Assembly (NCBI GenBank): GCA_964565945.1
Contig: CAZMGY010000010.1
Location: 30,001-62,000 of the forward strand
Source: an uncultured bacterium
GTDB taxonomy: Bacteria; GCA-001730085
Direction of reading: 5' to 3'
DNA length: 32,000 nt
In this document: positions 25,573 to 28,560 of the stretch, in pieces
Layout: the number at the start of each line of letters is the position of its first letter
Numbering within the stretch: position 1 is the stretch's first letter
The notes under the pieces: generated by a model
Databases searched by the model: none
What the model was told of the DNA's origin: nothing
What the model saw: the letters and a program-made list of their open reading frames with translations, nothing else
Translations under genes and position numbers: made by a program

Positions 25573-26049
25573 ATGCAGTGCCCTTTTTGTGCCCACTTAG
25601 ATGATAAGGTGATCGATTCACGCTTAATCCACGAGGGAAAAGTTGTTCGTCGGTGGCGTGAATGTTTGTCTTGCAAACGTCGTTTCACAACCTACGAACA
25701 GGTAGAAGTTTTGCCGTTGATGGTGATTAAGAAGAATGGTGTTCGGGAACGATTTAATGGGGAAAAAATCATTTTTGGGATTGTAAAAGCCTGCGAAAAA
25801 CGCCCCGTAACATTGGAGAAAATACAGGCTTTGGTGGACTGGGTTGAGGTATCCATACGCCAGAAATTTGAAGATGAAGTTCCTTGTAAAATGATTGGGG
25901 AAGAAGTGATTAAGGAGCTGAAGAAGCTTGATCAAGTAGCGTGCGTTCGCTTTATTTCGGTTTACAAAGATTTTAAAGATATTAACGAATTTATGTCAGA
26001 GCTTAAAATTTTGCTACGTAAAGATGAGGGGGGCCTTCCTTTATGCTAA
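25573..26049 (+). CDS. nrdR: transcriptional repressor NrdR
   Basis: MQCPFCAHLDDKVIDSR...CLSCKRRFTTYE Zn ribbon followed by an ATP-cone. The ORF is open from TTG 25540, but the canonical M-x-CP-x-C start is at 25573. Confidence 0.93.
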   Translation: MQCPFCAHLDDKVIDSRLIHEGKVVRRWRECLSCKRRFTTYEQVEVLPLMVIKKNGVRERFNGEKIIFGIVKACEKRPVTLEKIQALVDWVEVSIRQKFEDEVPCKMIGEEVIKELKKLDQVACVRFISVYKDFKDINEFMSELKILLRKDEGGLPLC

Positions 26050-28118
26050 AGGATTTTCTTGTTTCATCGGTGTGTAAGCACGATGAGGTACAAGTGCCTT
26101 TCGATCGCCAGCGTATTGTGAGTGCGATTGCGAGGGCCTTTGAGGTTTCGGATTCCAATGATAGGAGTCAAGTTGAGCCTATTGTTGATACGGTTTGTGA
26201 TTTGATTCAACAATCTTACCAAGAGCAGGTACCTCATATCGAAAACATTCAAGATGTGATCGAAATGGTTCTTATTCAAACGGGACATGGGGCGGTGGCC
26301 AATGTTTTTTCGCGTTATCGTGAGCAGCACAAAGAGGCGCGCGAAAAACTTAGAGTGTTTAAATATCAGGCACAACTTTATGTGGTCAGTGAGTCTTCGG
26401 AGCAGGATGTTTTGACAACTCCCTGGCAAAGGAGTGTTCTTGAACAATCGCTTTATAAGGATTATCAATTGAGTTTGGATAGAGCCAAGGATGTGGCTAA
26501 ATCTGTCGAAAAAGCGTTGATTCAATTGGGTTATGCGCGTATATCAACGGGCTTGATTGATAATTTGATTCAACAGGAGATGTTGCAAAAGGGGCTGTTT
26601 TTTCGTCCTGCAGCCCAAAGTCGCATGGGAATGGATATTGCTGACATGAAAGATGTTTTGGCGCATAGAGAGGTGGAGCGTCCTCAATATGTGTATCAGC
26701 AAATAGCGGCCGATACGATGAGGCAATTTATGTTGCAAAGCATTTATTCGCCAGAGGTGGTTAATTATCACCTACGTGGAGCGATGCACCTTTATAGCTT
26801 AGATTCTTGCTATTGGGATGAAGCTTCTTTGTCGTTAGAAGCCTTGAAACGTTTGGGAATGAGTTTGGTCTTTCTGGCGGAAACGGCGGCTCCTCCCAAA
26901 TATGCGCGAAGCCTTTCGGGACAGTTATCAACATTGATTCAAGAGTGTGGAGCTTATGCTGCACGAAAGATTATTATTCCTTCGTTAACTCTTTCGTATG
27001 CTCCTTTTTTGGAGGGCATGAGCTATGACCAAATCAAACAAGAAGCGCAGACGCTTTTTTATAGCTGTTGGCGATCGATTGATTTGACCCAACGACCTCA
27101 AGATGTTGATATCGAAATCGAACTGGCGGTTCCTCAGGCGTGGCAAGATATTGATGCAATTGGGCCTTCTGGAGAGTGGACGGGAAAACGCTATGGTCAT
27201 TATCAAGACACGGTTGAAATGTTTGCAATGGCCATGGTGGAGGTGATCGACGAAGAACTTCCACTCCATCGAGCCAGTGGTTTTCCGCAATGTGTTCTTT
27301 CGGTGACCTCGCGAGGCTTGGCCACTTTGGCTCAAAAAGAAATTTTACGGGCAGCTTTATCGGTGGCGCGAGTGAATCCTCATTTGAGCATTCGTTTGGA
27401 TCCTATTGAAAATCAAAAACGTTCCGATTTATGGGAGACACGGCTGTTTCATGATTTAACATTTCATACGGTGGCAATTAATATGCCACAACTGGTGTAT
27501 CGTTGGAAGCATTTGCGCGAAAATACTCTTTATTTGCTTATGTACAGCGTGATAGATCGTGTATTGGAGAGTTGTTTGCAAAAAAGACACATGTTATCTC
27601 AGATCAAGGCTTTGCCTCTGGTTGTTGACGATAAGGAACGTTTGCAGGAATGTTGTCGGATAGAACTTGTGGGTTTGGGTTCGGCTCTTGATCACATGTA
27701 TGACGATGGTGTTAAAGAAGATTATGTTCACCAAGTGATGCATTACTGTTGGCAAAAAGCAGATCAATTTTCCGAAGAGCATAACGTGAATATTCGTTTT
27801 CATGTTGCCTCCGATCCGCAAGTGAATTGTGCGATGGTGCAGGCCAATGAGCGATTTGCACCAGATTTGAATAATTTAATGTCTGTGATGGAGGACCATA
27901 GTTATCAAGATTTACAACCCTTTGGTACCGCAACGTACGCGAATCGTAAAATGTTTGCGGGTTGGCTTAAATGTTACGAGCATTATGGTTGGCCGATTCT
28001 TTTGGATATTCTGGGAGAGCACAGTTTTATGACCAACGAGGATTTGTTGGCGAGTCTAACGGCCCTCTTGTATAAAGAGGATATGAGTGTTCAGGAGGAA
28101 ATGTTTGTTGATGTCTGA
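26043..28118 (+). CDS. class III (anaerobic) ribonucleotide reductase NrdD homologue, apparently non-canonical or catalytically degenerate
   Basis: 691 aa. N-terminal ATP-cone (VQVPFDRQRIVSAIARAF), then a second cone-like segment (WQRSVLEQSL...ISTGLIDNLIQQEMLQKGL). NYHLRGAMHLYSLD resembles the NrdD H-x-G-x-IHIHDL block. AAPPKYARSLSGQL, TFHTVAINMPQL and IELVGLGSAL blocks are NrdD-like. The start ATG overlaps the nrdR stop (ATGCTAA). No C-terminal Cys cluster or R-x-x-G-Y/F tail. Confidence 0.8.
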   Translation: MLKDFLVSSVCKHDEVQVPFDRQRIVSAIARAFEVSDSNDRSQVEPIVDTVCDLIQQSYQEQVPHIENIQDVIEMVLIQTGHGAVANVFSRYREQHKEAREKLRVFKYQAQLYVVSESSEQDVLTTPWQRSVLEQSLYKDYQLSLDRAKDVAKSVEKALIQLGYARISTGLIDNLIQQEMLQKGLFFRPAAQSRMGMDIADMKDVLAHREVERPQYVYQQIAADTMRQFMLQSIYSPEVVNYHLRGAMHLYSLDSCYWDEASLSLEALKRLGMSLVFLAETAAPPKYARSLSGQLSTLIQECGAYAARKIIIPSLTLSYAPFLEGMSYDQIKQEAQTLFYSCWRSIDLTQRPQDVDIEIELAVPQAWQDIDAIGPSGEWTGKRYGHYQDTVEMFAMAMVEVIDEELPLHRASGFPQCVLSVTSRGLATLAQKEILRAALSVARVNPHLSIRLDPIENQKRSDLWETRLFHDLTFHTVAINMPQLVYRWKHLRENTLYLLMYSVIDRVLESCLQKRHMLSQIKALPLVVDDKERLQECCRIELVGLGSALDHMYDDGVKEDYVHQVMHYCWQKADQFSEEHNVNIRFHVASDPQVNCAMVQANERFAPDLNNLMSVMEDHSYQDLQPFGTATYANRKMFAGWLKCYEHYGWPILLDILGEHSFMTNEDLLASLTALLYKEDMSVQEEMFVDV

Positions 28119-28560
28119 GAGCGGGACTTTGCCACGTTATTCACGTTGTTTTGTCTGTGGTGAAGATAATTTGCATGGTTTAGGTCTAACTTTTTCTTAT
28201 TGGGACAGTTGTGTTTGGGCGAGCATAGCGTTTGCTCCTTCTTATGTGAGCTACGAGAATAGGATTCATGGGGGAGTGATCAGCGGCTTGCTTGATGAAG
28301 CGATGGGGTGGTCGTGTTATCTTCAGGATAAGCTCTTTTTTTATACTGTAGAGTTAAGTATGCGTTATTTAGTACCTGTTGCAGCACAGCGAGAGGTTCG
28401 TGTTGAAGCCAGGATGACTCAGCTGCAAAGAGGGCGTGCCTTTGCTGAAGCGACGCTTGTTTACACCGACCAACCCGATACTTTGTTAGTGAAAGCACAG
28501 GGAAAGTTTCTGCAGGCATCTTCCGATGATCAAAAGGCAATTCAAGGAATTCTCGATTGA
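28087..28560 (+). CDS. PaaI/4HBT-type hotdog-fold thioesterase
   Basis: CFVCGEDNLHGLGL and HGGVISGLLDEAMGW motifs. The start is either GTG 28087 (GAGG 6 nt upstream, 32-nt overlap with the NrdD-like gene) or ATG 28111 (ATGTCTGA, 8-nt overlap). Confidence 0.85.
   Translation: MFRRKCLLMSESGTLPRYSRCFVCGEDNLHGLGLTFSYWDSCVWASIAFAPSYVSYENRIHGGVISGLLDEAMGWSCYLQDKLFFYTVELSMRYLVPVAAQREVRVEARMTQLQRGRAFAEATLVYTDQPDTLLVKAQGKFLQASSDDQKAIQGILD

What the first reader, a model, noticed from the sequence alone, without database searches (positions are those of the whole stretch)
25573..28560. nrdR coupled to an NrdD homologue that seems to have lost radical chemistry, followed by a thioesterase instead of NrdG
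Seen in the sequence:
- Three + strand genes are packed with overlapping stop and start codons: nrdR/NrdD-like share ATGCTAA at 26043-26049, and NrdD-like/thioesterase overlap by 8 or 32 nt.
- The 691-aa middle protein tracks class III RNR along its length: an ATP-cone, a second cone-like segment, HLRGAMHLYSLD in place of the H-x-G-x-IHIHDL block, a PPK...GA block, AINMPQL in place of the NLPR strand, and VGLGSAL.
- Where the NrdDs I recall carry the finger-loop cysteine (CCRL or GCRS type, just upstream of the NLPR strand), this protein reads LSIRLDPIENQKR.
- The TPAE-like block reads SDPQ.
- The protein stops after ...GWPILLDILGEHSFMTNEDLL.... It has no four-Cys Zn ribbon and no R-x-x-G-Y/F glycyl-radical motif.
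- No radical-SAM activase (CxxxCxxC) is adjacent. The next gene is a PaaI-type hotdog thioesterase.

Inference: this could be an RNR-derived pseudoenzyme that still senses nucleotides through its cones, working with or under NrdR. Alternatively the barrel may have been recruited to a different reaction linked to an acyl-thioester. I know of no described nrdR-dead-NrdD-thioesterase module. My alignments are from memory and need verification.
Basis: partly seen in the sequence, partly recalled or inferred. Interest (0 to 1): 0.75.

Follow-up and report, generated by a model that had tools for sequence, protein, structure and literature searches.

The report
Radical-less NrdD relic beside nrdR
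Next to the repressor gene nrdR sits a gene that folds like the anaerobic ribonucleotide reductase NrdD but has lost every part needed for its radical chemistry; similar unnamed "dead" NrdD proteins turn out to be common in metagenomes, so they probably have a second, still unknown, non-catalytic job.

Summary
Three overlapping + strand genes encode an intact NrdR, a 691-aa NrdD-like protein and a hotdog thioesterase.

- **Fold:** the middle protein has two ATP-cone segments and a confidently predicted class III RNR barrel (pLDDT 83.5). The top 38 PDB fold matches are all NrdD.
- **What is missing:** the betaA cysteine, the finger-loop Cys motif (the loop is about 12 residues shorter), the NxN flap, the TPAE glutamate, the Zn ribbon and the glycyl-radical domain. 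No nrdG, and no relic of one, lies in the window.
- **Not an artefact:** 11 assemblies give the identical protein.
- **Origin:** the host is an Omnitrophota-related PVC bacterium. Its relatives carry nrdR-nrdD-redoxin-nrdG operons with NrdR boxes, so this locus looks like a degenerated version of that operon.
- **Orthologue:** the one found, at 33% identity, keeps the barrel but has no cones, no nrdR and no thioesterase.
- **Not unique:** 84 of 141 nearest homologue clusters are equally radical-less, and 6 of 11 such loci have nrdR directly upstream. None other has a thioesterase.

My best reading is a selected, non-catalytic NrdD derivative whose function is unknown, possibly nucleotide-linked. 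The thioesterase link looks incidental.

The parts
24987..25572 (.). 587-bp intergenic region upstream of nrdR, presumably holding the promoter. It has no NrdR-box pair.
   Evidence: Box-pair scans found nothing at 10 or more of 12 conserved positions. There is no Rfam match at E<=1. The same scan finds box pairs upstream of 10 of 13 true nrdD operons.
25573..26049 (+). nrdR: intact Zn-ribbon plus ATP-cone repressor, 158 aa
   Evidence: TIGR00244 scores 189 bits (cutoff 124.65). PF22811 and PF03477 both match. The four ribbon Cys residues and Asp15/Arg17 can be read directly in the translation.
26043..26049 (+). ATGCTAA: the NrdD-like start codon overlaps the nrdR stop codon, which suggests translational coupling
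   Evidence: Sequence read. The same kind of overlap occurs in L026, L030 and L032.
26043..28118 (+). NrdD-like gene, 691 aa, radical-less
26070..26336 (+). ATP-cone 1 (residues 10-98). At the five PcNrdD ligand positions it reads K12, H13, Y92, H96, R100.
   Evidence: Pfam ATP-cone. Alignment to 8p23. Ligand list from PMC11226230.
26376..26612 (+). Second, degenerate cone-like segment (residues ~112-190). W128 and E156 are nearly invariant in the family.
   Evidence: Second ATP-cone stretch. Column conservation.
26667..26693 (+). Site of the missing NxN flap: a 7-residue deletion relative to P0002 KENSNIAAN
   Evidence: BLASTP alignment. Flap mapped through the 8p23 alignment and PMC11226230.
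26748..27842 (+). Alpha/beta barrel core (residues 236-600), predicted with high confidence
   Evidence: AlphaFold2 pLDDT is mostly 85-98 here. Foldseek top 38 hits are all NrdD.
26805..26828 (+). betaA position where all RNRs carry a Cys (Tm Cys125). Here it reads SCYWDEAS, against VYCSSHS in P0002.
   Evidence: C256 is offset in the alignment and is not conserved in orthologue P0004. The conservation statement is from PMC4493059.
27399..27446 (+). Shortened, Cys-less remnant of the finger loop (residues 453-468)
   Evidence: There are 26 residues between betaE and N480, against a median of 38.5 in true NrdDs. An alignment gap sits opposite LSACCRL.
27474..27494 (+). AINMPQL strand, equivalent to NLPR. 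Asn480 is retained.
   Evidence: N480 is conserved in 49 of 50 radical-less homologues.
27648..27665 (+). ECCRIE on a barrel strand. C538, R539 and E541 are derived residues shared with the orthologue.
   Evidence: True NrdDs read YIIGLVG here.
27810..27821 (+). SDPQ in place of the (S/T)PAE block. The substrate-bridging Glu is lost.
   Evidence: Glu581 of PcNrdD mapped through.
27843..28115 (+). Divergent C-terminal tail (residues 601-691). It ends where the Zn ribbon and glycyl-radical domain should begin.
   Evidence: pLDDT is 28-73. The end is shared with P0004 (YGW..LDIL..QEE.F). No glycyl motif in any frame.
28111..28560 (+). Hotdog-fold (4HBT/PaaI-like) thioesterase, 149 aa, overlapping the NrdD-like stop by 8 nt
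   Evidence: PF03061 scores 36.4 bits. TIGR00369 and the PaaI equivalog are below cutoff. The nearest structures are uncharacterised (1zki, 3nwz). It is absent from all other radical-less loci.

Best explanation
The 691-aa gene descends from a PVC/Omnitrophota-type class III ribonucleotide reductase that once sat in an nrdR-nrdD-redoxin-nrdG operon.

In this lineage the redoxin and activase genes are gone. The reductase has lost its glycyl-radical domain, Zn ribbon, finger-loop cysteines, betaA cysteine, NxN flap and substrate-bridging Glu. It therefore cannot reduce ribonucleotides (shown).

It still folds as an NrdD barrel with two N-terminal cones (predicted). It is co-transcribed with, and probably translationally coupled to, an intact nrdR (inferred from the overlap). 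It has been kept as an open reading frame over long divergence, which suggests it is maintained by selection (inferred).

My best guess at its role is a non-catalytic protein with an unknown function, possibly linked to nucleotides. It may act through the conserved N-terminal half of the barrel (dimer and effector region), and perhaps through cone-cone contacts with NrdR. It is no longer a dNTP-producing enzyme and no longer a member of the NrdR regulon (inferred). The thioesterase is probably a neighbour that moved in after nrdG was lost, not a partner (inferred).
For: **Loss of radical machinery.**
- Pairwise and multiple alignments show the losses.
- The finger loop is about 12 residues shorter.
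- No Zn-ribbon/glycyl motif occurs in six frames, with positive controls found.
- No nrdG or nrdH relic is detectable.
- Equivalog HMMs score far below cutoff.

**Fold kept.** AlphaFold2 gives pLDDT 83.5 and pTM 0.75. Foldseek's top 38 PDB hits are all class III RNR.

**Ancestry.**
- SecA places the host next to the Bugula PVC bacterium (68% identity) and Omnitrophota.
- L011, L012, L014 and L015 carry nrdR-nrdD(~810 aa)-redoxin-nrdG.
- L029 and L030 show nrdR-dead NrdD-smc, where true loci have nrdR-nrdD-redoxin-nrdG-smc.

**Selection.**
- The protein is identical in 11 assemblies.
- Orthologue P0004 sits in a syntenic locus (PpiD 43% identity). It keeps an intact 508-codon ORF at 33% identity and shares 56 derived residues with the window protein.
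- 84 of 141 nearest 50%-identity clusters are equally radical-less, and they keep H243, G246, N480, G544 and canonical cone ligands.

**Uneven conservation.** Identity to the true NrdD P0002 is 36% in cone 1 and 38% in the N-half of the barrel, but 12% in the finger loop and 21% in the C-half.

**Out of the NrdR regulon.** Box pairs lie upstream of 10 of 13 true nrdD operons but of only 1 of 11 radical-less loci, and none in this window (Fisher p = 0.0013).
Against: - No direct evidence for any activity or binding.
- Cone 1 of this protein has His at two Arg ligand positions and Glu at the conserved Gly. Its orthologue has lost the cones and nrdR. So a cone- or NrdR-based role is doubtful in this sub-lineage.
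- nrdR adjacency is not enriched over true NrdDs.
- Loop 2, which links the specificity site to the active site, is not conserved in the radical-less family.
- Only two members of this particular subfamily were found among 1.84 billion representatives.
- The lineage may be host-associated and undergoing gene decay.
- Selection could not be measured by dN/dS: available strains are 99.6% or more identical, and the orthologue is saturated.
Confidence: 0.5

Rival explanations
1. It is a decaying relic. The anaerobic RNR became useless in this lineage (oxic or host-associated). The gene is drifting toward loss and has no function. Its position beside nrdR is only inherited operon structure.
For: - All catalytic elements are gone, and the C-terminal third is poorly conserved and poorly predicted.
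- Cone ligands are degraded.
- The orthologous locus has lost the cones and nrdR.
- NrdR boxes are lost.
- nrdR adjacency is no more frequent than for true NrdDs.
Against: - A 691-codon ORF at 29% identity to the nearest true NrdD, without a single stop or frameshift, is not expected under neutral drift (inference).
- The orthologue keeps a 508-codon ORF in an AT-rich genome and shares 56 derived residues.
- Dozens of independent clusters keep the same truncated architecture with invariant positions.
- The barrel core is predicted with pLDDT above 90 over 390 residues.
Confidence: 0.2
2. It is a neofunctionalised enzyme or ligand-binding barrel. With the finger loop and Gly loop gone, the barrel interior has gained a new polar site that performs non-radical chemistry or binds a new ligand. 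It may work with the downstream thioesterase on an acyl-thioester.
For: - The barrel, not the cones, is what the two orthologues keep.
- 56 shared derived residues include a polar set on three predicted barrel strands: Q353, D354, E358, E360; N445, P446, H447; C538, R539, E541.
- The thioesterase start overlaps the stop by 8 nt.
Against: - The thioesterase is absent from the orthologous locus and from all 10 other radical-less loci.
- The derived polar residues are not shared by the wider radical-less family.
- They could simply be a salt-bridge filling of the emptied barrel.
- Model coordinates could not be inspected, so the geometry is unknown.
Confidence: 0.2
3. It is still a ribonucleotide reductase. 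It would use an unconventional radical route, for example Cys537/Cys538 as the thiyl site with a radical delivered in trans by a separate glycyl-radical peptide or another cofactor.
For: - A CCR tripeptide exists at 537-539, and C538 is conserved in the orthologue.
- T. maritima NrdD shows that finger-loop geometry can be unconventional (PMC4493059).
Against: [quoted passage not shown]
- The NxN flap and the substrate-bridging Glu are missing.
- No activase, redoxin or glycyl peptide lies in the window or in any radical-less locus examined, apart from an unrelated 334-aa radical SAM gene in L026.
- The CCR sits on a barrel strand that reads YIIGLVG in true enzymes.
Confidence: 0.03

Closest known systems
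Class III (anaerobic) ribonucleotide reductase NrdD of the PVC/Omnitrophota type, encoded in nrdR-nrdD-redoxin-nrdG operons (e.g. P0002, L011, L012, L014, L015)
   Same: - Two N-terminal ATP-cone segments.
- The same barrel fold.
- nrdR immediately upstream.
- 29-32% identity overall, and 36-38% in cone 1 and the N-half of the barrel.
- Shared motifs: HLxGxxHL, YAPFLEGM, N(L/M)PQ, GLxxA.
   Different: - No betaA Cys, no SCCR finger-loop motif (the loop is about 12 residues shorter), no NxN flap and no TPAE Glu.
- No Zn ribbon and no glycyl-radical domain.
- No redoxin or activase gene downstream.
- No NrdR boxes upstream.
NrdR and other ATP-cone nucleotide sensors (Rozman Grinberg et al. 2022, PMC9110341; PcNrdD, PMC11226230)
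   Same: It carries ATP-cone domains of the kind that bind ATP/dATP and drive nucleotide-dependent oligomerisation. It is co-encoded with NrdR.
   Different: It has no DNA-binding Zn ribbon. Cone 1 has His at two Arg ligand positions. Nucleotide binding is untested. The orthologue lacks cones.
Catalytically inactive RNR subunit homologues: betaherpesvirus R1 homologues M45/UL45 and yeast Rnr4 (from my own knowledge, not tested here)
   Same: The RNR fold is kept while catalytic or cofactor residues are lost, and the protein is retained for a non-catalytic role.
   Different: Those are class I subunits of eukaryotic viruses or eukaryotes. This is a bacterial class III derivative that lacks a whole C-terminal domain. 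Its role is unknown.
Hotdog-fold 4HBT/PaaI-like thioesterases
   Same: The third gene has the 4HBT domain and an HGG..D-type motif.
   Different: It scores below the PaaI equivalog cutoff. The nearest solved structures are uncharacterised. No conserved link to NrdD-like genes was found.

Membership tests
Class III RNR catalytic subunit (NrdD) | Ten-stranded alpha/beta barrel fold of NrdD | tested here: met
   AlphaFold2 pLDDT 83.5. Foldseek top 38 PDB hits are all NrdD, with target TM-score up to 0.59.
Class III RNR catalytic subunit (NrdD) | Profile scores above the curated cutoffs | tested here: not met
   The Pfam NRDD domain passes (63.2 vs 26.2) but covers only model positions 9-408 of 562. 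Equivalog models fail: TIGR02487 42 vs 326, NF006126 104 vs 548.
Class III RNR catalytic subunit (NrdD) | Finger-loop cysteine motif (MGCR / MCCR / SCCR; PMC9669993) | tested here: not met
   A gap and DPIENQKR lie opposite LSACCRL. The loop is 26 residues against a median of 38.5.
Class III RNR catalytic subunit (NrdD) | [quoted passage not shown] | tested here: not met
   CYWDEAS lies opposite VYCSSHS. C256 is offset by a gap and is absent from orthologue P0004.
Class III RNR catalytic subunit (NrdD) | C-terminal Zn ribbon plus glycyl-radical motif R(I/V)xG(Y/F) | tested here: not met
   The protein ends before it. The motif is absent from all six frames of the window and found in the controls.
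Class III RNR catalytic subunit (NrdD) | Cognate radical-SAM activase NrdG | tested here: not met
   None in the 32-kb window. The rest of the genome could not be searched.
NrdR regulon member | Pair of 16-bp NrdR boxes 15-16 bp apart upstream (PMC13584703) | tested here: not met
   No pair reaches 10 or more of 12 conserved positions upstream of nrdR. Pairs are present at 10 of 13 true nrdD operons.
NrdR | Zn ribbon plus ATP-cone, TIGR00244 above cutoff, DNA-contacting Asp15/Arg17 | tested here: met
   189 bits vs 124.65. PF22811 and PF03477 match. C3, C6, C32, C35, D15 and R17 can be read in the translation.
ATP-cone domain | PF03477 match and nucleotide-ligand residues (PcNrdD Lys7, Arg8, Tyr83, Arg87, Arg91) | tested here: inconclusive
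   The domain match is met (72 bits, two stretches). The ligand positions read K12, H13, Y92, H96, R100, so three of five are kept. Binding was not tested.
PaaI-type thioesterase | 4HBT domain; PaaI equivalog score | tested here: not met
   PF03061 passes (36.4 vs 20.6). TIGR02286 scores 17.6 vs 118.9 and TIGR00369 scores 28.5 vs 36.6. It is a generic hotdog thioesterase, not demonstrably PaaI.
Pseudoenzyme (inactive homologue kept by selection) | Catalytic residues lost, fold kept, purifying selection | tested here: inconclusive
   The first two features are met. Selection is inferred only from ORF integrity and orthologue conservation. dN/dS was not measurable.

The most novel reading that the evidence does not exclude
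Radical-less NrdD-like proteins form a widespread family that has evolved more than once. These are ATP-cone-bearing pseudo-reductases, often still fused into an operon with nrdR. They would act as nucleotide sensors or modulators of NrdR or of the remaining RNRs, which would be an unrecognised layer of dNTP homeostasis. The window gene would be a divergent member whose barrel has taken on its own role.
Probability: 0.25. Interest if true: 0.85.

Novelty: new variant of a known kind. Interest (0 to 1): 0.62.

Why it matters
Ribonucleotide reductases are among the best-studied enzymes, and a catalytic cysteine is treated as universal in them. A large set of bacterial NrdD homologues that keep the fold and the ATP-cones, but have shed the whole radical apparatus, would be a clear case of a bacterial RNR pseudoenzyme.

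- **Annotation.** These proteins are currently unnamed, or are called ribonucleoside-triphosphate reductase. That can lead to wrong inferences of anaerobic dNTP synthesis in MAGs.
- **A testable question.** What does an NrdD barrel with ATP-cones do when it cannot make dNTPs, and does it talk to NrdR?
- **Evolution.** The loci appear to show steps in how an anaerobic operon degenerates when lineages change niche.

Tried and rejected
- **Frameshift or split gene.** Rejected. The protein is identical in 11 assemblies. No Zn-ribbon/glycyl motif occurs in any frame of the window or of 10 radical-less loci, while controls were found.
- **Relics of nrdG, the redoxin or the glycyl domain in the window.** tblastn gave only chance-level hits. 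A 25% ungapped match of a 100-aa Brocadiales ORF to residues 576-654 was rejected, because it overlaps a region already explained by NrdD homology.
- **NrdR boxes or a riboswitch upstream of nrdR.** None found. The sigma-70 and terminator scans were at background level.
- **Word-indexed search with a 50-sequence alignment of the radical-less family.** It returned almost nothing and was uninformative.
- **More orthologues.** The metagenome scan found none. SecA-based synteny in a 62%-identity relative showed no nrdR or NrdD-like gene nearby, and no DNA was returned.
- **Conservation of specificity loop 2 as evidence for effector binding.** The region is variable in the radical-less family, so I make no claim from it.
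- **Cys537/538 as a substitute thiyl site.** Considered and judged very unlikely (see rivals).
- **dN/dS.** Not possible. The strains are 99.6-99.97% identical.
- **Organism name.** The genome is not among the GTDB species representatives. Only a placement by SecA similarity was possible.

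
Full report
**1. What is in the sequence**

- nrdR runs 25573-26049.
- A 691-aa ORF runs 26043-28118. Its ATG lies inside ATGCTAA, which also holds the nrdR stop.
- A 149-aa ORF runs 28111-28560, overlapping the previous stop by 8 nt. An alternative GTG start at 28087 would give a 32-nt overlap.

All quoted peptide motifs are present at the expected residues.

Profile searches give the following.
- NrdR scores well above cutoff (TIGR00244, 189 bits).
- The middle protein has two ATP-cone stretches and a Pfam NRDD match that stops at model position 408 of 562.
- All curated NrdD equivalog models score far below cutoff.
- The third gene has a generic 4HBT hotdog domain.

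The rest of the window holds housekeeping genes: argG, argH, lysA, dapF, dapA, dapB, folK, panB, purU, secA, lnt, prfA and a ppiD-like gene. No other RNR gene and no radical-SAM activase is present.

**2. The protein is NrdD by fold but lacks the radical apparatus**

AlphaFold2, run with a 114-sequence alignment, gives mean pLDDT 83.5 and pTM 0.75, with 390 residues above 90. The 38 best Foldseek matches in the PDB are all class III RNRs from Prevotella copri, Streptococcus thermophilus, Thermotoga maritima and phage T4.

The closest true NrdD is P0002 (809 aa, 29% identity). It carries LSACCRL, ESPAES, a CxxC...CxxC ribbon and RIVGY, and it aligns to T. maritima NrdD across these motifs. Against it, and in multiple alignments, the window protein shows six losses.
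- **betaA cysteine.** VYCSSHS is replaced by CYWDEAS. [quoted passage not shown] The nearby C256 is offset and is absent from the orthologue.
- **Finger loop.** It is reduced to 26 residues, against a median of 38.5 in true NrdDs, and has no cysteine.
- **NxN flap.** A 7-residue deletion removes it.
- **Substrate-bridging Glu.** The Glu of (S/T)PAE is lost (SDPQ).
- **Zn ribbon.** Absent.
- **Glycyl-radical loop.** Absent. The chain ends just where these two C-terminal elements should begin.

This is not an artefact.
- Ten further independent assemblies encode the identical protein in the same context.
- A six-frame search for a ribbon-plus-glycyl motif finds nothing in the window but finds the controls.
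- tblastn with NrdG, the redoxin and NrdD C-termini from relatives gives only chance hits.

**3. Where it came from**

The window's SecA is 68% identical to that of a 'PVC group bacterium (ex Bugula neritina AB1)'. The next named hits, at 46-51%, are all Candidatus Omnitrophota.

A scan of species-representative genomes found no copy of the window genome. It did find two things.
- **The orthologous locus in the Bugula bacterium (L013).** The protein, P0004, is annotated 'hypothetical protein'. The ppiD-like neighbour is 43% identical.
- **True NrdDs of about 810 aa in Omnitrophota, Planctomycetota and Brocadiales.** Their operons read nrdR-nrdD-small redoxin-radical-SAM activase, often followed by smc.

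These true operons carry clear NrdR-box pairs upstream. The window has none. The window locus therefore looks like a degenerated nrdR-nrdD-redoxin-nrdG operon.

**4. The orthologue**

P0004 (508 aa) aligns with window residues 201-688 at 33% identity. It shares the Cys-less short loop, VAIN(L/M)PQLVYR, CRIEL.G and the same C-terminal end (YGW..LDIL..QEE.F). It has no ATP-cones, no nrdR upstream and no thioesterase downstream.

The two proteins share 145 identical barrel positions. Of these, 47 are ancestral. Another 56 are derived residues found in under 10% of 112 other homologues, and several are polar and lie on three predicted barrel strands.

An intact ORF at this divergence, with lineage-specific conserved residues, argues for selection on the barrel. 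It is not a measurement of selection.

**5. It is not alone**

An exhaustive HMMER search of 1.84 billion cluster representatives gave 1539 homologues. Of the 141 usable sequences among the best 150:
- 84 lack the betaA Cys, the finger-loop Cys, the Zn ribbon and the glycyl motif together;
- 17 have all four.

The radical-less proteins are 620-790 aa long and end at the same point, just after the last barrel elements. They keep H243, G246, N480 and G544 almost invariantly. Unlike the window protein, they also keep canonical ATP-cone ligands: K 44/50, R 46/50, D 45/50, G 42/50.

No NCBIfam model names them. One is labelled ribonucleoside-triphosphate reductase by IMG.

A bootstrapped neighbour-joining tree is rough, but it supports several separate radical-less clades. 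One radical-less protein (P0042) nests inside a true NrdD clade at 95%, which suggests more than one independent loss. The window pair is closest by distance to the true PVC-type NrdDs, but its placement is unresolved at 29.5%.

**6. Genomic context of radical-less loci**

- nrdR lies directly upstream, often overlapping, in the window and in L026, L027, L029, L030 and L032.
- nrdR is absent upstream in L013, L028, L031, L040, L041 and L042.
- The rate of 6 of 11 does not differ from true NrdDs in the same sample (4 of 12; p = 0.41). The linkage is therefore inherited rather than newly acquired.
- Downstream genes vary: radical SAM, smc, a uridine-kinase-like gene, a methyltransferase, a Thioredoxin_3-like ORF. 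None is a thioesterase.
- In L042 the radical-less gene sits beside a class II nrdJ. The nrdJ has a perfect NrdR-box pair and the radical-less gene has none.
- Overall, box pairs precede 10 of 13 true nrdD operons but only 1 of 11 radical-less loci (p = 0.0013).

**7. Interpretation**

*Shown:* the protein cannot perform class III RNR chemistry. It derives from a PVC-type nrdR-nrdD operon. It belongs to a large population of similarly truncated homologues.

*Inferred:* it is maintained by selection, and it has left the dNTP-supply regulon.

Its positive function is unknown. My preferred reading is a non-catalytic role, possibly nucleotide-linked. Two things point that way. Conservation is highest in cone 1 and the N-terminal half of the barrel (36-38% to P0002), against 12-21% in the catalytic half. 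The wider family also keeps its cone ligands.

For this particular sub-lineage the cones look degraded or dispensable. The barrel itself must therefore carry whatever function remains. That keeps a 'new site in the emptied barrel' reading alive.

The thioesterase is best seen as an incidental neighbour.

**8. Literature**

Full-text searches returned nothing that describes such proteins.
- The searches covered NrdD with pseudoenzyme; NrdD-like; catalytically inactive with ATP-cone; and Omnitrophota with RNR.
- Large RNR surveys report only MGCR/MCCR finger loops (PMC9669993).
- A glycyl-radical enzyme survey found only canonical Gly in IPR012833 (PMC11528403).

The library is incomplete, so prior mention elsewhere cannot be excluded.

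**9. Limits**

- The rest of the genome could not be searched.
- Model coordinates could not be inspected.
- Phylogeny was neighbour-joining only.
- Selection was not quantified.
- No experiment bears on function.

Noticed in passing
window 14853-17888: SecA (1011 aa) has an insertion of about 230 aa inside the SecA_DEAD domain. Its closest named relatives are a PVC bacterium from Bugula neritina (68% identity) and Candidatus Omnitrophota (46-51%). This places the window's organism.
   Followed up: partly
window 4222-4725 (-): A 167-aa ORF with a sub-threshold match to a DDE transposase (DDE_Tnp_1_4, 27 bits). It is probably a transposase fragment.
   Followed up: no
window 9862-12174 (+) and 1367-2383 (-): A 770-aa ORF and a 338-aa ORF with no Pfam family at E<=1e-3.
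   Followed up: no
window 1-32000: GC skew is positive (+0.08 to +0.32) in all but one 1-kb bin (2001-3000, -0.011). This holds even over minus-strand genes such as 23025-24986 and 29248-30870.
   Followed up: no
window 24987-25572: An unusually long 587-bp intergenic region lies upstream of nrdR. It has no Rfam hit, no NrdR boxes and one imperfect 23-nt direct repeat (25294 and 25415).
   Followed up: partly
P0010 (metagenome protein, 794 aa): This NrdD homologue keeps the Zn ribbon and an RIAGY glycyl motif but lacks the betaA Cys and the finger-loop CC. It is an odd intermediate between true and radical-less forms.
   Followed up: no
L042 1721-8235: A class II nrdJ with a perfect NrdR-box pair and cobA lies 1.7 kb upstream of a cone-less, radical-less NrdD-like gene (P0042). 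An 83-aa Thioredoxin_3-like ORF follows, and there is no nrdG. P0042 nests inside a true NrdD clade at 95% bootstrap.
   Followed up: partly
L029 4688-10170 and L030 4538-8143: The gene order is nrdR, radical-less NrdD-like, smc. In Planctomycetota and Brocadiales (L012, L014, L015) the order is nrdR-nrdD-redoxin-nrdG-smc. The comparison suggests the operon degenerated in place.
   Followed up: yes
L026 8152-9156: A 334-aa radical-SAM gene, larger than the ~240-aa NrdG proteins seen here, directly follows the radical-less NrdD-like P0006. dCMP deaminase and nrdR lie upstream.
   Followed up: no
window 27087-27665 (residues 349-541): The window protein and its orthologue share derived polar residues on three predicted barrel strands: Q353, D354, E358, E360; N445, P446, H447; C538, R539, E541. 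This could be a new pocket or a salt-bridge filling of the emptied barrel.
   Followed up: partly
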